A stretch of DNA of 64,000 bases from Promethearchaeota archaeon (GCA_048937405.1 JBHLNF010000001.1:480001-544000), one strand, 5' to 3'. Counted from the stretch's first letter, positions 57,499 through 63,658 are shown. A program made the numbers and translations. The notes: generated by a model not told the origin, from the sequence alone.

Positions 57499-58014
57499 TC
57501 AATTTTTTAATTTTAATGCAATTTTCAAAAATAATTTCTCTAGATCAAGTAGATATCCGATTAAAGGAGTTAAGCTAACTTTATTTAAAAGTTTATTAAT
57601 GATAACAAATCCTTTTTTTTCTAATTCTTTAAGATCTTCTAAAACACCTTTTTTTTTTCGCAATTCTTTTATTTTTTGAATAGTAGTTTCTCCTGTACTA
57701 TTAAAACAGCTTATCATGGTACAGTACAATGTGGCAGCTAATCTAGGGTTTCCTTCAAAAGGGTTTGCTGATATAATTTCTGTTGTTTCGGGATCAAAAG
57801 AAATATACCAATAAGAATTCAAGGGATTAAATCTTACTTGAAGTCCTAAAGGTTTAAGATAATTTGAAAGATTAGTTATTAAATTTTGAAAGTAAATCGA
57901 TTTATTTCTATCTTTAATATTTAAATTTTTAAGAATGACTTTTTTAGTAGCTCCAATTTGATAAATATCTGTTTTTTTACTTAATAAATGCAATAAAACT
58001 GTTATTTCATTCAT
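57499..58014 (-). CDS. KITE/ScpB-like tandem winged-helix protein
   Basis: Two wHTH-like halves (LSNYLKPLGLQV; LAATL...LEDLKELEKKGFV...LTP); last gene of the SMC operon; AGGAGG SD before the ATG at 58014. Confidence 0.6.
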   Translation of the reverse strand: MNEITVLLHLLSKKTDIYQIGATKKVILKNLNIKDRNKSIYFQNLITNLSNYLKPLGLQVRFNPLNSYWYISFDPETTEIISANPFEGNPRLAATLYCTMISCFNSTGETTIQKIKELRKKKGVLEDLKELEKKGFVIINKLLNKVSLTPLIGYLLDLEKLFLKIALKLKN

Positions 58015-58030
58015 TTGTAGTTCAATCCTC

Positions 58031-58678
58031 CTATAAATATAAAGTGTTAGTGTTTTTTTCATATTTTATTTTGTCTAATTGAAGTAAATGTAAGAGATAT
58101 ACAAAATTTTCAAAAATTTTCATTTGATCAACTTCATCTTCAAAAATTAATTCATATGAACAAGGTAGTTTACTTTTAATACTGTTAAAAAAAGCCATCA
58201 TTTTATCAGTAAATTGTTTTTCTGGTATTTCTAATAAAAAAGTTTCTTTTAACTTAATTTTTTCAATAGGTTCAATCTTTAATGCTTCTACTTTATTATG
58301 TACTAATCGTTCTTTTGAATTTTCAAGGAATTGCAGTGAAAGAGTGTCAATAGTAAAAGGTTCTCTCCAACAATCCTCAAAAACTTGATAAATTTCCAGA
58401 TCTTTTGGATTTGATTGTAAGAATTTTAAAAATTTATCTTGATTATCCAAATAACTAAGGAAGATTTTTAATTCTTCAAATTTTTGAATAAGCAGTTGAA
58501 ATGCATTTTCATAAGTATTTGAATACTTATTTATGTTATAAATCGTAAGAGAATCCTTTAAATTCTCAAATAACGATACTAATTCTACATCTAAAAGAGA
58601 GATCTCACCAGATAGGACCTTATTCTTAATAAGTTCAATCTTATTATTTATTTCTTCAGAAAAGTCTTTATATTCCAT
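58031..58678 (-). CDS. Kleisin/ScpA-like protein
   Basis: N-terminal GEISLLDVELV (compare ScpA G.ID..DI.I) and C-terminal cap-like FVYLLHLLQLDKI (compare F.ALL.L...GKI); directly after SMC. Confidence 0.7.
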   Translation of the reverse strand: MEYKDFSEEINNKIELIKNKVLSGEISLLDVELVSLFENLKDSLTIYNINKYSNTYENAFQLLIQKFEELKIFLSYLDNQDKFLKFLQSNPKDLEIYQVFEDCWREPFTIDTLSLQFLENSKERLVHNKVEALKIEPIEKIKLKETFLLEIPEKQFTDKMMAFFNSIKSKLPCSYELIFEDEVDQMKIFENFVYLLHLLQLDKIKYEKNTNTLYL

Positions 58679-58691
58679 TCTCCTTCAAAAT

Positions 58692-61600
58692 TTATTCTTT
58701 CTTCACAATTTTTGGTTTAAATACAGAAGAGACCTCCCTTTTTCCCACTCTAGCTATTCCAATCAATTTATCAGCTAATAAAAATAGCGAATTAGAGGAT
58801 TTTGGCAGAAACATGAACAATTGAATTGGATTTTTCTCTAAAGTTGATTTAATTAATTGATACACCACTTCTGAATTCTTTTCATCTAAAAACATCCCTG
58901 GTTCATCAAGCATTGAAAGTGCGGAAGGCTTAATCTCTTGAAGAGATAATATCAGACAAATTGATACTAGTGAAACTTGACCTCCACTTAGAGCAGTAAA
59001 AGATTTTAATTGCTCTTTGGAAGTAGCAGCTTTAATCTCAACTCCCAAATCTTCAAAATTTCCAGTTAATTCAAGAGAACAATAAGATTTAATTTGTGAA
59101 TCCTTAAATTTTTGATTAACTTTCTCTTGCAGATTTTCAATTACAGTACTAAATTTATTGTAATAAGTTGTCTCCATTTTGTTTTCTGCTTTTATCGCCG
59201 CTTTAATATCTTTTTCTAAGTCTGTTTGATTTTTTGTAATTTTTTTGAGAGAATTCAAAATTTGGTCCTTTTCAATTAGAATTGAATCATCAACATCTAA
59301 ATATTTAAGGAGATCTTTGTCAATATCTGAAATATCTGCTTTAATATCTTCAATTGGACGAATTTTAATAATATCTTTCGAAATTAAAGGACCTACTTCA
59401 GAATTAATTCTGATTAAATCATTTTTTTTTAATTCAAGATCTTGATTATAAGAATTTAGTTTTATATTTTCTTGTTCAAAATTTAAAGTAATTTGAATAG
59501 ATTTTCTCTCTAATTCACTTTTTCTGTTTTGTAATCCTAATATCTCCCTTTTTATATCTGAAATTTCTTTTTTAGTAATCTCAAGTTTATCTTCAACATT
59601 CTCTAATTGGCGATATATATTAAAAGCAGTTTTATCCGCTTTTTGAAATGCTTCCTTCTTTGATTGAAAATCCTTTTGAAGTAAATTTTTATCATATGAT
59701 TGTTTGTTTATTTCCTCTCTCACTGCTTTTATAAGATCATTGTTTTCGCTAAATTTTTTATCCCATTTTTTCTTTTCTTCATTTAAAAGAGCTAACTCAC
59801 TTGGAATATCGGTCAATCTATCATTCCACTTAAAAAATTCTGGATCAGTCTGGGCTTTTAGAGAATTTATTTGCAGATCTAATTCTTTAATCTCAGTTTT
59901 AATATTTGAATTAGCTTTTTCTAATTCATGCATTTGATCATATAGTTGATTCTTTTTTGCTGTAATTCTTTGTTTCTGGTTAAAATTGTAGAGAAGATCA
60001 TTAAAAGATTCCTTCTTTTGAAATATTTCTTTTTGAATAGAATCTAACTTTGCTAGATTAACCCTCATCTCTGAAATTTTTTCATTTAATGTTTTAATTT
60101 CTAACTCTAAAACCTCGGATTGTTCTTTTTGTGTTCCAGCACTTAATAATCCTTTTAACCTCTTGAGATAGGGTGTTTCATAGACATAACTATAAGAAAT
60201 TATCTGTTCTCCTTTCAAAGTAACACATTTTCCTTTGAAATCATGGGTACTATAATATTTTCTTCCAGAATGATAATCAGTAGCAACAATACAATTCTTA
60301 ATCTTTGAGTAAATAACTTTTTTGATATCAATATCTTCATTGACAAATTCAATTAATTCTGCTAAATAACCAAGGATACCATTCGTAGATATTTTATTCA
60401 TTGGCTTAATATTGATATTTTTAGGAAGGTAGATATTGCAGTATGCACCAAATTTGTCTTTCAATCTTTTTAACAAGTTTAAAGTGTCCCAATCCTCAGC
60501 AACAAAACTATAAAGTAATTTTTCCCCAAGAACAGATTCAATAGCATAGCTTAAATCATCATCATATTTTAAATAGTCGATAATTGGACCTTTTACCTTT
60601 AAACCTCTTTTATTTATCTCATCCTTGAGAACTGTAATATTTGAAGGAAGAATGACACGACGCTCTCTAAGTGAAGTCTGTAATAATTTTAACTTTTTAA
60701 ATTTTTTTGAGAGTTCAATTTCAGTTCTTTTTAATTCAGAGTCAATTTCATAAATTGCTGTTGATGTCTTATTAAGTTCTCTCTCAAGCTGAACTTGTAA
60801 ATCCTTGCTTGGATTATCCAAGAACCATTCATTTTTTTCGAGTTTATGTTCAATATCTTTAAAGCTTTGAAACAATTGACTAATTTCATTATTATAAGCC
60901 TTGATTGCTTTGTCATTCTCTTGAATTAGCTTTAAGCTTTCTTTTTTCTTAGAATTTATTTGTTCATACTTTTCCAGTAAAGCTTTGTTTTGTTCTATTT
61001 TCTTTATTAATTGATTCTGTTCCGTTATCAATTTATCTATTTGTAATCCTTTACTTTTACTTTCGGCTTTTATTATTTTTATTTCATTTTCTAAACTTAC
61101 TTTCTGTTTTTCGAAATTATTGATTATTTTTTGAATTTCATTAATCCTATTTGATAAAGTGTCTAACTCTTGTTTGGCTTGGACTTTATCTTTTTGCCAA
61201 TTTTGAATTTTTTCAATTAAATCTTGTTTTTTATAGTCTAACTCGCCCAATTGTTTTGAAAGCTCATTTATGACTTGTTGTTTATCTATAATTTTATTAG
61301 ATAGAGCATTTATTTCTCTCTCTGAACCTTCTTTTAATTTTTTTATTCTCTCTAAATCTAATTTAACATTTGTAACTTTTTCTTCTATATCGATTATTTC
61401 TTTCTCTAATTTATCTTTATTGGCCCATAGTAATTCATCACTAAATTTCTTCTTAATATCTAATAATTTATTTTTTTGTTCTAAACGTTCTAATTTAGGA
61501 TTTAAGAGTTCCAAGCTAATATTTAATGTATTTTTCCTACTTTTCAATGAATGTAGATCGTTATTTAATTCATAAACACTTCTTTTCTGATGTACAATCT

Positions 61601-62159
61601 CTTCTCTCAAACCTTTTAATCCGATACCTTCCTCAAGGAAGGAACTTAATTGTGTTGGTTTTAAATTTTTTATTGAATCGATTTTTCCCTGACTTACAAA
61701 TGCAAATTGATTGTCTGGATTAATATTTAAATCAGAAATTAGCTTTTGGATTTCTTGGACTGTTTTTTTTTTAAATTCTATGTCATCCTTTCTCTTAAGT
61801 AAAAAGTATGGCGATTGTCCTCTGATAACAGCCCTTCTTAACTTGATTAATTCATCTTCATTTTGGATATGAATTTCTACCATTGCATGATTTTGACCAT
61901 TTCTAATAAAATCTGACCATTTTTTATATCGTTCATCTCGCTCATTACTTCCCAAAACAAATTTTATCGCTTGAAATATTGAGGTTTTGCCACTCCAATT
62001 TGGACCTACAATAATTACGAATTTAGATTTTCCAAAATCAACTTCATCTTTCTGGAAAGATAGAAAATTTTCCAAAATTACTTTCCAGATAAATATTTTT
62101 CCTTTTTCTGGTGAACCAATATTATTCTTTTTCGCATTTGTATGGGTTTGAGACGCCAA
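58692..62159 (-). CDS. smc: SMC-family ATPase, SMC5/6-like
   Basis: LENFLSF, Walker A GPNWSGKT, Q-loop NINPDNQFAFVSQ, long coiled coils, hinge GPI...AIESVLG, LSGGQ, Walker B MLDE. Confidence 0.92.
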   Translation of the reverse strand: MASQTHTNAKKNNIGSPEKGKIFIWKVILENFLSFQKDEVDFGKSKFVIIVGPNWSGKTSIFQAIKFVLGSNERDERYKKWSDFIRNGQNHAMVEIHIQNEDELIKLRRAVIRGQSPYFLLKRKDDIEFKKKTVQEIQKLISDLNINPDNQFAFVSQGKIDSIKNLKPTQLSSFLEEGIGLKGLREEIVHQKRSVYELNNDLHSLKSRKNTLNISLELLNPKLERLEQKNKLLDIKKKFSDELLWANKDKLEKEIIDIEEKVTNVKLDLERIKKLKEGSEREINALSNKIIDKQQVINELSKQLGELDYKKQDLIEKIQNWQKDKVQAKQELDTLSNRINEIQKIINNFEKQKVSLENEIKIIKAESKSKGLQIDKLITEQNQLIKKIEQNKALLEKYEQINSKKKESLKLIQENDKAIKAYNNEISQLFQSFKDIEHKLEKNEWFLDNPSKDLQVQLERELNKTSTAIYEIDSELKRTEIELSKKFKKLKLLQTSLRERRVILPSNITVLKDEINKRGLKVKGPIIDYLKYDDDLSYAIESVLGEKLLYSFVAEDWDTLNLLKRLKDKFGAYCNIYLPKNINIKPMNKISTNGILGYLAELIEFVNEDIDIKKVIYSKIKNCIVATDYHSGRKYYSTHDFKGKCVTLKGEQIISYSYVYETPYLKRLKGLLSAGTQKEQSEVLELEIKTLNEKISEMRVNLAKLDSIQKEIFQKKESFNDLLYNFNQKQRITAKKNQLYDQMHELEKANSNIKTEIKELDLQINSLKAQTDPEFFKWNDRLTDIPSELALLNEEKKKWDKKFSENNDLIKAVREEINKQSYDKNLLQKDFQSKKEAFQKADKTAFNIYRQLENVEDKLEITKKEISDIKREILGLQNRKSELERKSIQITLNFEQENIKLNSYNQDLELKKNDLIRINSEVGPLISKDIIKIRPIEDIKADISDIDKDLLKYLDVDDSILIEKDQILNSLKKITKNQTDLEKDIKAAIKAENKMETTYYNKFSTVIENLQEKVNQKFKDSQIKSYCSLELTGNFEDLGVEIKAATSKEQLKSFTALSGGQVSLVSICLILSLQEIKPSALSMLDEPGMFLDEKNSEVVYQLIKSTLEKNPIQLFMFLPKSSNSLFLLADKLIGIARVGKREVSSVFKPKIVKKE

Positions 62160-62181
62160 ATTAATCTTCTCCTATGTTGAT

Positions 62182-63432
62182 TTATTTACCAAATGCTTGT
62201 TTTATCAGATCTACTCTTTTTTTTGCTTTTTCTAAATTTATCTGAGCTCTAGGTGGAGAATCATTTAAAATGAATGAATACTTTGCAATCAATTTCATCT
62301 CACCTTCTTCTAATGGTTCTTTTTTTGCTAATTTATCAATTATTAATACAAGCTCAGTATAATATTTTGAAGCAGCATTCTCATATAATTGATTTAGCAT
62401 AAATTCTGAAATATTAGATTCTTGAATATTTTTAACAATTTCACTTACATCCTTGTAATTTTCAACCTCTAAAGAAATTTTTGGGGTAGCAAATTGTTTA
62501 TTTTCAATTTGTTCTTCATTTAATTCTGCTTTTACTTTATGATTTGAATTAGAATGAACAATATTAGGTATGTATTCACCTGATATTATTAAATCAATTA
62601 AAATATCTGTAATTTCATTACTTGTTTCATTTAATTCTGAATTTAAAAAATGTTTAAATATTCCAACCTTCAATAGTTGTTTTACATCTTTAACCTCCCA
62701 ATTTTCAGTGTAATTTACGATCTCATTTATATTAAAGACGATTTTACTGTTTTTTTCTAAAAAATCCCTTAATACTGTTTCTCGCTCTATTTTATTTATT
62801 AATGGGATTCTAATAAAAAGATCAAATATAGAATATAGCTTGTCTGATAAATTGCTAACATCTTGGATATTATAGTTTATCCATACCATAATTAAATTAG
62901 CATCAATAAATTTAAAATTATCCCTCTTCTTTTGCCTACTGTTCAAAAACTCTTCAAGTAAATTCTTCCCTTCCAATTTTTTTTTATTTATGTTTTGCTG
63001 ATTAATCAATAATATTCTTTTTTCGCCACCTTTATCAGACTTTATATTTTTAACTTCCTTGCTATTTTTATATAATAAATCTTTTCCAAAATCATCTATA
63101 ATTCGGATAAAATTTCTTAAAAATTCAATAGGATCTTTGTTGATTTCCTCTTCATCAATTTCAATTATATCTAAGTAATAATTCTTCGAAATTAGTTTTA
63201 AATAATCTAAAATATCCGTTCCAGGATTAGTATTAATTAAAATGGCTCCTTTTGGTTCTATATAACCATTTAACTTAGGATCGTCATGATTGGTTAGCAT
63301 AGCTTTGATAAAATTAATAATATCATTATATTTATCCCGATAGAAAATATCTTCCTTATTGATATCAATTTCTGTAGACGGAATTACTCGAAAATATTTC
63401 GAAAATTCGGGAATATCATCTAATTCTTTCAT
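62182..63432 (-). CDS. Degenerate (pseudo) classical AAA+ ATPase with a helical C-terminal domain
   Basis: IEPKGAILINTNPGTD (compare PKGVLLYGPPGTGKT), ILLINQ (compare IFIDE), FDLFIRIPLINKIERETVL and INEIVNYTENWEVKDVKQL (lid). Confidence 0.7.
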   Translation of the reverse strand: MKELDDIPEFSKYFRVIPSTEIDINKEDIFYRDKYNDIINFIKAMLTNHDDPKLNGYIEPKGAILINTNPGTDILDYLKLISKNYYLDIIEIDEEEINKDPIEFLRNFIRIIDDFGKDLLYKNSKEVKNIKSDKGGEKRILLINQQNINKKKLEGKNLLEEFLNSRQKKRDNFKFIDANLIMVWINYNIQDVSNLSDKLYSIFDLFIRIPLINKIERETVLRDFLEKNSKIVFNINEIVNYTENWEVKDVKQLLKVGIFKHFLNSELNETSNEITDILIDLIISGEYIPNIVHSNSNHKVKAELNEEQIENKQFATPKISLEVENYKDVSEIVKNIQESNISEFMLNQLYENAASKYYTELVLIIDKLAKKEPLEEGEMKLIAKYSFILNDSPPRAQINLEKAKKRVDLIKQAFGK

Positions 63433-63658
63433 TTATATTTTTCCTTTAATTCTTCCTTAATTTTATAAACATAATTTACATGACTTTTAACAAATATATA
63501 TTTAGCGGTAAGTATAGTTTTCGATAATTAAATCTCCGATAAAAACCATAAAACTTATAAGATCGTTTTTTGGGAGAAAGAAAATAAAAAAAAATTAAAA
63601 GCTGAAAGAAATTCTTCTATAATTCTCTTAATCTATGATTTGCATAAATAACTAAAAA

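What the first reader, a model, noticed from the sequence alone, without database searches (positions are those of the whole stretch)
57499..63432. SMC5/6-like-kleisin-KITE operon headed by a catalytically dead AAA+ protein
Seen: four co-oriented genes with short spacers (22, 13 and about 16 nt), and SD motifs before the last three. The first protein keeps the classical AAA scaffold (PKG..L...PGT, second-region-of-homology-like FDLFIRIPL..ER..L, lid) but has lost the Walker A Lys, has NQ in place of Walker B DE, and has no obvious Arg finger. Established: SMC-kleisin-KITE is the architecture of Smc-ScpAB, MukBEF, Wadjet and eukaryotic SMC5/6, and SMC5/6-related proteins occur in archaea. Inference: the pseudo-ATPase is a dedicated fourth subunit (loader, scaffold or regulator) of an archaeal SMC5/6-type complex. 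I know of no described SMC system with such a partner.
Basis: partly seen in the sequence, partly recalled or inferred. Interest (0 to 1): 0.85.

Follow-up and report, generated by a model that had tools for sequence, protein, structure and literature searches.

The report
Dead AAA gene heading Asgard SMC operon
A Loki-type Asgard archaeon carries, besides its ordinary chromosome-folding genes, the already published second SMC-kleisin-kite operon. In every lineage that has this operon, it starts with a conserved AAA-type gene that has lost its ATP site. This is probably an undescribed helper subunit, but binding has not been shown.

Summary
Four minus-strand genes (416, 1155, 215 and 171 aa) are separated by 22, 13 and 16 nt, with Shine-Dalgarno motifs before the last three.

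- **Gene 2:** a divergent SMC with a hinge. It is the genome's second SMC, since a canonical Smc and ScpA/ScpB lie elsewhere.
- **Gene 4:** folds as a tandem winged-helix KITE (ScpB Z 12.0, Nse1 Z 9.9).
- **Gene 3:** a kleisin by position and by the literature only.
- **Gene 1:** has a classical AAA fold (Rpt/PAN/p97/Msp1, Z 11-13). None of 21 diverse orthologues has a Walker A lysine. Its most conserved part is a family-specific C-terminal helical domain.

The order AAA-like, SMC, kleisin, KITE recurs in over 100 loci from Loki-, Thor-, Baldr- and Freyarchaeum-type genomes. The AAA-like gene and the KITE occur in the same families of 201 Asgard genomes, and one near-complete genome lacks both.

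The SMC-kleisin-kite operon is published (van Hooff et al.; Yoshinaga and Inagaki). I found no paper that mentions the AAA-like gene. The "SMC5/6" label rests on elimination plus those papers, not on a tree made here. Physical binding is untested, and one complex prediction gave no verdict. This scan has flagged the same gene set in at least 39 other genomes.

The parts
63462..63590 (-). Non-coding block upstream of the AAA-like gene, conserved almost base for base. It holds two TATA-like boxes (cgatcttataag; ctaaatatatat) and a direct repeat, TCGnnAAC / CCGCTAAA. It is probably the operon's promoter and operator.
   Evidence: In an alignment of 12 genomes whose AAA-like proteins are 58-80% identical, runs such as CCGCTAAATAT are invariant. 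There is no Rfam match, no conserved RNA fold and no small ORF. The motif occurs only here in the 4.47-Mb genome.
62182..63432 (-). Gene 1: a 416-aa pseudo-ATPase derived from a classical AAA domain (alpha/beta core plus lid, residues about 2-290). A variable linker and a family-specific helical C-terminal domain follow.
   Evidence: AF2 model with pLDDT 62. Foldseek finds PAN, Msp1, FtsH, p97 and Vps4 at E about 1e-6. VIA-align gives Z 11.3-13.1 to Rpt subunits, Trip13, Msp1 and p97. Thorarchaeota orthologues pass Pfam AAA PF00004. The family profile hits Cdc48/PAN-type frames at 1e-12 to 1e-16.
63205..63243 (-). Degenerate Walker A position (ILINTNPGTDILD, residues 64-76). The GK[ST] motif is replaced.
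   Evidence: None of 21 orthologues has the lysine. An active AAA from another Asgard family aligned beside it has GPPGTGKT where the Thor orthologues read GPPGTDFE.
62995..63015 (-). Degenerate Walker B position (ILLINQQ, residues 140-146).
   Evidence: An Asp-Glu pair is present in only 1 of 21 orthologues.
62185..62412 (-). C-terminal helical domain (residues 341-416). It is the most conserved part of the protein and carries the family signature QLY..AA...Y.EL..IIDKL....PL......LA.YPFIL.D.P..A...L.KAKK.
   Evidence: Model pLDDT is 75-91 here. Mean pairwise identity is 42%, against 22% for the AAA core, and every orthologue has the domain. It is the only part that a single-sequence search detects in distant families. 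No informative structural neighbour was found.
58692..62159 (-). Gene 2: a 1155-aa divergent SMC with intact ATPase motifs (GPNWSGKT, LSGGQ, LDE) and a hinge. It is the second SMC of the genome.
   Evidence: Pfam SMC_N at both ends plus SMC_hinge at 25.3 bits (cut-off 22.5). TIGR02168/02169 score far below their cut-offs. A canonical 1483-aa Smc lies at C7:37.8-42.2 kb. The alignment has invariant G52, K58, S1058, G1060, D1085 and E1086.
58031..58678 (-). Gene 3: a 215-aa candidate kleisin.
   Evidence: It sits between the SMC and KITE genes in all loci. The family profile touches the ScpA C-terminal winged helix only at E 1.2, and there is no Pfam match. van Hooff et al. call the corresponding in-between gene of P. 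syntrophicum an Nse4-related kleisin.
57499..58014 (-). Gene 4: a 171-aa KITE (tandem winged helix).
   Evidence: AF2 model with pLDDT 85. Foldseek finds ScpB, Nse1/Nse3, JetB, MukE and MAGE. VIA-align gives ScpB Z 12.0 (148 aligned, rmsd 3.2) and Nse1 Z 9.9 (157 aligned, rmsd 5.9). It has no Pfam ScpB match, whereas the genome's other kite has one.

Best explanation
The locus is the second, non-ScpAB SMC-kleisin-KITE operon of a Lokiarchaeia-type Asgard archaeon. Published work calls this kind "SMC5/6-related".

It is transcribed from a strongly conserved promoter region as one four-gene unit. Its first gene encodes a protein that descends from a classical AAA ATPase (the Cdc48/PAN/Vps4/FtsH clade) but can no longer bind or split ATP.

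The most likely mechanism is that this protein is a non-catalytic accessory partner of the SMC ring: a loader, an ATPase-cycle regulator or a targeting adaptor. It probably docks through its conserved lid and C-terminal helical domain, while the decayed AAA core serves as a scaffold.

Shown:
- the fold, the dead motifs and purifying conservation;
- strict gene linkage and matching presence or absence with the operon.

Inferred:
- co-transcription (spacers of 13-22 nt);
- physical association and the regulatory role.

My odds:
- functional partner of this SMC system, about 0.75;
- stable physical subunit, about 0.45.
For: - **Fold:** Foldseek and VIA-align place residues 2-285 in the classical AAA clade. 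Thor orthologues pass Pfam PF00004, and the family profile hits Cdc48/PAN-type frames.
- **Dead site:** 0 of 21 orthologues have a Walker A Lys and 1 of 21 has a Walker B DE pair. An active AAA aligned beside them shows what was lost.
- **Linkage:** the order AAA-like, SMC, kleisin, KITE holds in 20/20 loci from four families of the sample. It also holds in five further loci of three more families. In 80 further Loki loci, 60 of the 63 with enough flank have the full order and 17 short ones are consistent.
- **Phyletic match:** in 201 Asgard genomes the AAA-like gene and the KITE occur in the same families. Families f3 and f13 have only Smc-ScpAB and no AAA-like gene. Genome G144 (98% complete) lacks both.
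- **Second complex:** a canonical Smc and ScpA/ScpB lie elsewhere in the genome.
- **KITE fold:**
- **Selection:** the C-terminal domain averages 42% identity across classes. The family has only 106 representative clusters among 1.84 billion proteins, and all named members looked up are Asgard.
- **Not a known defence system:**
Against: - Nothing here shows that the proteins touch.
- Co-transcription is inferred from spacing only, because no RNA data could be obtained.
- The kleisin assignment is positional.
- Membership in an SMC5/6 clade was not tested by a tree. Similarity to solved SMC5/6 chains is no higher than to SMC1-4 or Smc.
- In one Thor-type genome the KITE gene is inverted. In one Thor genus a transporter gene is inserted between kleisin and KITE, so the unit is not inviolable.
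Confidence: 0.6

Rival explanations
1. The dead AAA protein is an adaptor that brings an active AAA+ machine to the SMC ring, to unload, unfold or recycle it. That machine could be a Cdc48/PAN-type unfoldase or the MoxR-VWA pair. The dead protein would then not itself be a structural subunit of the complex.
For: - A MoxR-type AAA_5 ATPase and a VWA-like protein sit next to the operon in five other Asgard families of the sample. They lie co-oriented directly upstream in f8 and f9, divergent in the Thor-type family (f7) and f26, and downstream in f20.
- The pair is conserved, but unlinked, in this genome.
- From general knowledge, inactive AAA paralogues are known to co-assemble with active ones (FtsHi/Ycf2).
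- Chains of the Ycf2-FtsHi complex are among the fold matches.
Against: - In Lokiarchaeia the MoxR-VWA pair lies on another contig.
- MoxR belongs to a different AAA+ clade, so a mixed ring is unlikely.
- The Arg fingers are gone, and by eye I see no aromatic pore-loop motif. That argues against insertion into a working hexamer.
Confidence: 0.17
2. The four genes form a plasmid- or virus-sensing defence system of the Wadjet or Lamassu kind. The AAA-like protein would be its sensor or effector, taking the place of JetD.
For: The layout is a four-gene SMC, kleisin, KITE and extra-protein set, as in JetABCD. The KITE model also matches JetB. The SMC head gives weak PADLOC hits to mad3, LmuB and JetC.
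Against: - PADLOC has no hit for the AAA-like protein, the kleisin or the KITE. Its SMC hits (at most 65 bits) are far weaker than the match to the Smc model TIGR02168 (218 bits).
- No nuclease or other effector domain was found.
- The operon is single-copy, present in 37-38 of 40 genomes of the family, and keeps a conserved promoter. That pattern is typical of vertically inherited core genes, not defence islands.
Confidence: 0.06
3. The AAA-like gene is a passenger. It shares a promoter with the SMC genes but acts elsewhere in the cell.
For: No binding evidence exists. The gene has no recognisable functional site.
Against: - The gene keeps its position directly before the SMC gene across several Asgard classes with only 15-33% protein identity.
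- Its presence and absence match those of the operon, and one near-complete genome lacks both.
- Passengers rarely keep their position over such evolutionary distances.
Confidence: 0.1

Closest known systems
Archaeal "SMC5/6-related" SMC-kleisin-kite operon of TACK and Asgard archaea (van Hooff, Raas, Tromer and Eme, bioRxiv 10.1101/2024.01.07.573240; Yoshinaga and Inagaki 2021, PMC8665677)
   Same: It is a second SMC, followed by a small kleisin and a non-ScpB kite, in that order, in a genome that also has Smc plus ScpA/ScpB. The papers describe exactly this for Prometheoarchaeum syntrophicum, genes 495-497.
   Different: Those papers list three genes and never mention an AAA-like gene. "AAA" has 0 occurrences in the main text and appears only inside taxon names in the supplements. 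Here a fourth, upstream gene is as conserved as the other three. I assigned the window's operon to that class by elimination, not by a tree.
Eukaryotic SMC5/6 holocomplex with its Nse5/Nse6 loader
   Same: It is an SMC-kleisin-KITE core plus a dedicated extra, non-catalytic factor. The proposed role (loading, or control of the ATPase) is modelled on Nse5/6, which inhibits the Smc5/6 ATPase (PMC8327961; title and abstract seen).
   Different: Nse5/6 are alpha-solenoid proteins, not AAA-derived. Homology is neither expected nor found. Here there is one SMC and one KITE gene, so homodimers are presumed. No Nse2-like gene was seen.
Classical-clade AAA ATPases (PAN/Rpt, Cdc48/p97, Vps4, Msp1, FtsH; Pfam PF00004) and their inactive relatives such as FtsHi in the Ycf2 complex
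   Same: It shares the alpha/beta core plus four-helix lid fold and the order of elements. There is sequence-level homology through the Thor orthologues.
   Different: The Walker A Lys, the Walker B Asp-Glu and the Arg fingers are lost. It has a unique C-terminal helical domain and lacks the N-terminal substrate domain. The window's own protein does not reach any Pfam AAA model.
Smc-ScpAB (bacterial and archaeal condensin)
   Same: The three-part architecture is the same, and the KITE model superposes best on ScpB (Z 12.0).
   Different: The genome has its own Smc and ScpA/ScpB elsewhere. The window's kleisin and kite miss the ScpA and ScpB Pfam models. The SMC scores 63 bits against an archaeal Smc structure, where the canonical paralogue scores 404.
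Wadjet JetABCD
   Same: It is a four-gene SMC system with kleisin, KITE and one extra protein.
   Different: The extra protein of Wadjet is a Toprim nuclease (general knowledge). Here it is a dead AAA domain. PADLOC gives no JetA, JetB or JetD match. The inheritance pattern is that of a core gene set.

Membership tests
Classical AAA ATPase (PF00004) | Alpha/beta nucleotide-binding fold followed by a helical lid | tested here: met
   Foldseek E about 1e-6 to PAN, Msp1, FtsH and p97. VIA-align Z 11.3-13.1 with 178-242 residues aligned.
Classical AAA ATPase (PF00004) | Walker A GxxxxGK[ST] | tested here: not met
   NPGTDILD in the window. None of 21 orthologues has the Lys.
Classical AAA ATPase (PF00004) | Walker B hhhhDE | tested here: not met
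   ILLINQQ in the window. DE is present in 1 of 21 orthologues.
Classical AAA ATPase (PF00004) | Arg finger(s) in the second region of homology | tested here: not met
   SDKLYSIFDLFIRIPL has no Arg at the finger positions. Some Thor orthologues keep one Arg.
Classical AAA ATPase (PF00004) | Pfam model matched above its cut-off | tested here: not met
   The window's protein has no hit. Thor orthologues score 40-43 bits against a cut-off of 21.2. The protein is therefore derived from the family but is not a working member.
SMC protein | Split ABC-type head: Walker A at the N end; signature motif and Walker B at the C end | tested here: met
   GPNWSGKT, LSGGQ and LDE are present. SMC_N matches at both ends, and these columns are invariant.
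SMC protein | Central hinge domain between two long arms | tested here: met
   PF06470 matches at residues 522-634 with 25.3 bits (cut-off 22.5).
Canonical prokaryotic Smc (TIGR02168/02169) | Score above the equivalog cut-off | tested here: not met
   218 and 197 bits against cut-offs of 567 and 729. The canonical paralogue lies elsewhere on the same contig.
SMC5/6-related archaeal SMC clade | Branches with eukaryotic SMC5 and SMC6 in a phylogeny | not testable with these tools
   No eukaryotic sequences could be obtained. By bit score against solved chains: SMC4 73, Smc 63, SMC6 26. The canonical paralogue scores Smc 404, SMC5 48 and SMC6 27. This is uninformative about the clade.
SMC5/6-related archaeal SMC clade | Encoded with a non-ScpA kleisin and a non-ScpB kite, in a genome that also has the ScpAB set | tested here: met
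   This matches the description.
Kleisin | N-terminal helical domain and C-terminal winged helix that bind the SMC neck and cap | tested here: inconclusive
   No Pfam match. The profile hits the ScpA C-terminal winged helix only at E 1.2. hhalign against the genome's own ScpA-like protein gave nothing. The gene order fits.
KITE | Tandem winged-helix fold | tested here: met
   Model pLDDT 85. ScpB Z 12.0 and 11.6; Nse1 Z 9.9 and 9.5; JetB, MukE and MAGE by Foldseek.
KITE, Nse1/Nse3 subtype | Closer to Nse1/Nse3/MAGE than to ScpB | tested here: inconclusive
   The fold is nearer ScpB by 2 Z units. The sequence misses Pfam ScpB as well as the MAGE and Nse1 models. A weak Atlas lead points to MAGE at 0.83.
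Wadjet / Lamassu defence systems | Matches to JetA/B/D or LmuA/C models | tested here: not met
   PADLOC gives only weak SMC-head hits and nothing for the other three proteins.

The most novel reading that the evidence does not exclude
The dead AAA protein is a stoichiometric fourth subunit of the Asgard SMC5/6-related ring. It would be an analogue of the eukaryotic Nse5/6 loader, gating DNA entry or throttling the SMC ATPase. In other Asgard classes it would work with the neighbouring MoxR-VWA pair as a machine that remodels SMC rings. That would mean SMC5/6-type complexes already had dedicated accessory factors before eukaryotes arose.
Probability: 0.35. Interest if true: 0.78.

Novelty: new variant of a known kind. 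Interest (0 to 1): 0.6.

Why it matters
Asgard archaea are the closest known prokaryotic relatives of eukaryotes. Their second SMC complex is the proposed forerunner of SMC5/6, which guards genome stability.

How SMC5/6-type rings are loaded and regulated is an open question, and the eukaryotic loader Nse5/6 has no known prokaryotic counterpart. A conserved, catalytically dead AAA protein tied to this operon in every Asgard class where I found the operon is a concrete, clonable candidate for such a factor.

The finding also corrects database labels. One orthologue is deposited as "FtsH 4" and another as "ATP-binding protein".

The four proteins can be co-expressed, and Loki-type archaea exist in culture, so the idea is directly testable.

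Tried and rejected
- **Complex prediction:** Complex prediction with the SMC head plus neck (residues 1-245 and 925-1155) and the full AAA-like protein gave "no answer". This is neither for nor against binding. Arm, hinge, kleisin and KITE were not tried, because only one job was allowed.
- **Locus search:** The search for related loci with the diverse alignment failed for lack of a conserved stretch. The rerun with the Loki-only alignment returned almost only Loki-type contigs, so TACK operons were not surveyed.
- **Profile comparisons:** hhalign of the kleisin and KITE profiles against the genome's own ScpA-like and ScpB proteins gave nothing.
- **H-loop test:** a 76-residue SMC tail found no PDB match. 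I therefore could not check whether the FLPK motif at the H-loop position is shared with SMC5.
- **C-terminal domain:** the Atlas search gave only generic helical neighbours.
- **Longer family members:** Pfam found nothing in ten longer proteins of 514-623 aa.
- **Upstream block:** no Rfam match, no conserved RNA fold, no small ORF and no second copy in the genome. A riboswitch, a small RNA and a regulon were therefore dropped.
- **Rate covariation:** I compared evolutionary rates among protein regions in 75 loci. Known contacts were recovered (kleisin-head 0.40, kleisin-KITE 0.39, arm-hinge 0.51). The AAA-like protein gave only weak, subset-dependent signals, with head and KITE at 0.24-0.34. 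I treat this as a lead only.


Full report
**What is in the window**

On the minus strand lie four genes: 63432..62182 (416 aa), 62159..58692 (1155 aa, TTG start), 58678..58031 (215 aa) and 58014..57499 (171 aa). The spacers are 22, 13 and 16 nt. Each of the last three genes has a Shine-Dalgarno motif. The window is G000:C7:480001-544000 of a 4.47-Mb, low-GC Loki-type Asgard genome.

**The SMC, the kleisin candidate and the KITE**

Gene 2 matches Pfam SMC_N at both ends and has a hinge in the middle. Its Walker A, signature and Walker B motifs are intact and invariant in 21 orthologues. It falls far below the cut-offs of the canonical Smc models.

The genome has a canonical 1483-aa Smc at C7:37.8-42.2 kb. 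It also has a ScpA-like/ScpB pair at C7:79.5-80.8 kb. The window therefore holds a second SMC set.

Gene 4 gave a confident model (pLDDT 85) with two winged-helix domains. Its best structural matches are all KITEs:
- ScpB: Z 12.0, 148 residues aligned, rmsd 3.2.
- Nse1: Z 9.9, 157 residues aligned, rmsd 5.9.
- JetB, MukE and MAGE, found by Foldseek.

It is a KITE, but the subtype is not resolved. It misses the Pfam ScpB, MAGE and Nse1 models.

Gene 3 has no family match. Its profile touches the ScpA C-terminal winged helix only at E 1.2, so I call it a kleisin by position and literature only.

**What is already published**

van Hooff et al. (10.1101/2024.01.07.573240) and Yoshinaga and Inagaki (PMC8665677) describe two SMC complexes in TACK and Asgard archaea. 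One is a condensin/cohesin-related set with a ScpB-like kite. The other is an "SMC5/6-related" set with an Nse4-related kleisin and an Nse1/3-related kite. In Prometheoarchaeum syntrophicum each set forms a three-gene cluster.

By elimination, the window's operon is the second kind. I could not test this with a tree, because no eukaryotic sequences could be brought in. Against solved chains the window's SMC scores as follows:
- Window SMC: SMC4 73, Smc 63 and SMC6 26 bits.
- Canonical paralogue: Smc 404, SMC5 48 and SMC6 27 bits.

So the protein is simply distant from everything, and the SMC5/6 label stays literature-based.

**The first gene is a dead AAA protein**

The window's protein has no Pfam, NCBIfam or PDB sequence match. 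Four lines of evidence place it in the classical AAA clade:
- Its AF2 model (pLDDT 62; the core and the C-terminus are reliable, the linker is not) matches PAN, Msp1, FtsH, p97 and Vps4 by Foldseek.
- VIA-align gives Z 11.3-13.1 to Rpt subunits, Trip13, Msp1 and p97 over residues 2-285.
- Syntenic orthologues in Thorarchaeota pass Pfam AAA above its cut-off.
- A profile of the family hits ordinary Cdc48/PAN-type frames at 1e-12 to 1e-16.

The catalytic motifs are gone. None of 21 orthologues from seven families of the sample has the Walker A lysine: Loki-type proteins read NPGTDILD and Thor-type proteins read GPPGTDFE. Only one keeps an Asp-Glu pair at Walker B. The Arg-finger positions are unoccupied in the window's protein.

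The loss therefore dates to the root of the family as sampled, and the protein has been kept ever since. The best-conserved part is a helical C-terminal domain (residues 341-416):
- C-terminal domain: 42% mean pairwise identity.
- AAA core: 22%.
- Linker: 12%.

In one family (f8) the protein is cut down to 271-276 aa. It lacks most of the core but keeps the lid and the C-terminal domain. That points to the lid plus C-terminal domain as the working module.

The family is small: 106 representative clusters among 1.84 billion proteins. Every named member I looked up is Asgard: Loki, Thor, Baldr, Freyarchaeum and Sigyn.

**Linkage to the SMC operon**

- The order AAA-like, SMC, kleisin, KITE held in 20 of 20 loci fetched from four families of the sample.
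- It held in five more loci of families f8, f19 and f26. Two further loci of f7 and f20 were cut off by contig ends.
- In 80 additional Loki-type contigs, 60 of the 63 with enough flank had the full order, 17 short ones were consistent and none contradicted it.

In a sample of 201 genomes of the phylum, the AAA-like gene and the KITE occur in the same families: f1, f2, f7, f8, f9, f19 and f26. The one exception is an incomplete f20 genome, where a contig end removes the AAA-like position. Neither gene occurs in about 19 other families.

Two sampled families without the AAA-like gene (f3 and f13) have only Smc-ScpAB. One 98%-complete genome of the window's own family lacks both genes. The binding criterion remains untested.

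**How it most likely works**

The spacing and the Shine-Dalgarno motifs suggest one transcript. A block of about 130 nt upstream (63462-63590) is nearly invariant in 12 genomes and unique in this genome. It holds two TATA-like boxes and a direct repeat, and shows no RNA structure. I read it as the operon's promoter and operator.

I propose that the dead AAA protein is a non-catalytic partner of the ring: a loader, an ATPase regulator or a targeting adaptor. It would dock through its lid and C-terminal domain. The model for such a role is Nse5/6 of eukaryotic SMC5/6, which has a different fold.

This step is inference. The one complex prediction I could run gave no verdict. Rate covariation gave only weak hints toward the head and the KITE.

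**Rivals**

- **Adaptor for an active AAA+ machine.** This is the strongest rival. A MoxR-type ATPase plus VWA-like pair flanks the operon in five other Asgard families and lies unlinked in this genome.
- **Defence system.** This is unlikely. PADLOC finds nothing beyond weak SMC-head similarity. No effector domain was found, and the inheritance pattern is that of a core gene set.
- **Passenger gene.** This is unlikely, given that the gene keeps its position across classes.

**Novelty**

The three-gene operon is known. The AAA-like fourth gene is mentioned in none of the papers or supplements I searched. This same scan has flagged and followed up the same gene set in at least 39 other genomes, with the same conclusion. 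My results agree with those notes and were obtained independently on this window.

Noticed in passing
window 63462-63590 (minus strand): A non-coding block of about 130 nt upstream of the AAA-like gene is almost invariant in 12 genomes whose proteins are only 58-80% identical. It has two TATA-like boxes and a TCGnnAAC / CCGCTAAA direct repeat. There is no Rfam match, no conserved fold and no small ORF, and the motif is unique in the genome.
   Followed up: yes
L033:3-2790, L029:5502-8457, L028:1-2484, L030:2-2153, L036:1-2526, L038:3-3148, L035:9520-11217, L039:573-2901; own genome G000:C17:61678-65110: A MoxR-type AAA_5 ATPase (about 570 aa) and a VWA-like protein (about 560 aa) lie next to the AAA-like/SMC operon in five non-Loki Asgard families. 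Their orientation varies between families. In this genome the pair is conserved but sits on another contig.
   Followed up: partly
window 62157-62159; L015:8130-8520, L022:3560-4000, L024:3620-4060: The SMC gene starts with TTG here. In 16 of 78 loci the called ORF starts more than 130 nt after the AAA-like stop. In the three such loci I inspected, the frame is open from just after that stop but has no ATG, GTG or TTG before the Walker A region. This suggests a non-canonical start codon or translational coupling.
   Followed up: partly
L126:3048-10134 (genome G041, family f16): An apparently active classical AAA protein (309 aa; GPPGTGKT, IDE, Arg fingers) lies directly upstream of, and overlaps, a different 1063-aa SMC-like gene with a hinge. 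A 950-aa Hsp70-like gene follows. This protein lacks the C-terminal domain of the dead family.
   Followed up: partly
window 58800-58820 (SMC residues 1113-1119): Where canonical SMCs usually have the H-loop histidine, this SMC reads IQLFMFLPK. Gln1113 and Pro1119 are invariant in 21 orthologues. Walker A also carries an unusual Trp (GPNWSGKT). From memory, SMC5 reads ITPK at this position, but I could not verify that here.
   Followed up: partly
L031:4070-6577, L032:4415-6913 (Freyarchaeum-type genomes): The SMC of this operon is only 832-835 aa in family f19, so its arms are much shorter. The AAA-like partner there is longer (459-463 aa).
   Followed up: no
L036:7956-9305, L037:4188-7515, L038:9381-9893: In one Thor-type genus an MFS transporter gene (L036), or a Kelch-repeat gene plus a 446-aa gene I did not scan (L037), is inserted between kleisin and KITE. 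In another Thor-type genome the KITE gene is inverted. In G195 the KITE lies on a different contig from the rest.
   Followed up: partly
L033:2787-3617, L034:2451-3266: In family f8 the AAA-like protein is reduced to 271-276 aa. It lacks the Walker B and sensor-1 strands but keeps the lid and the C-terminal domain.
   Followed up: partly
L030:2740-3810 (TXT55942.1), L031:2694-4073 (WXG40903.1), L113: Public labels look wrong. The Thor orthologue is deposited as "ATP-dependent zinc metalloprotease FtsH 4" and the Freyarchaeum one as "ATP-binding protein". A contig labelled Nanopelagicaceae bacterium encodes a Loki-type AAA-like protein (50% identical) and is probably mis-binned.
   Followed up: no
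KITE family (alignment A3): Six of 17 KITE orthologues weakly match Pfam PF25212 (HVO_A0114, a Haloferax plasmid protein family), with a best E of 3.8e-5. I did not pursue what that family is.
   Followed up: no
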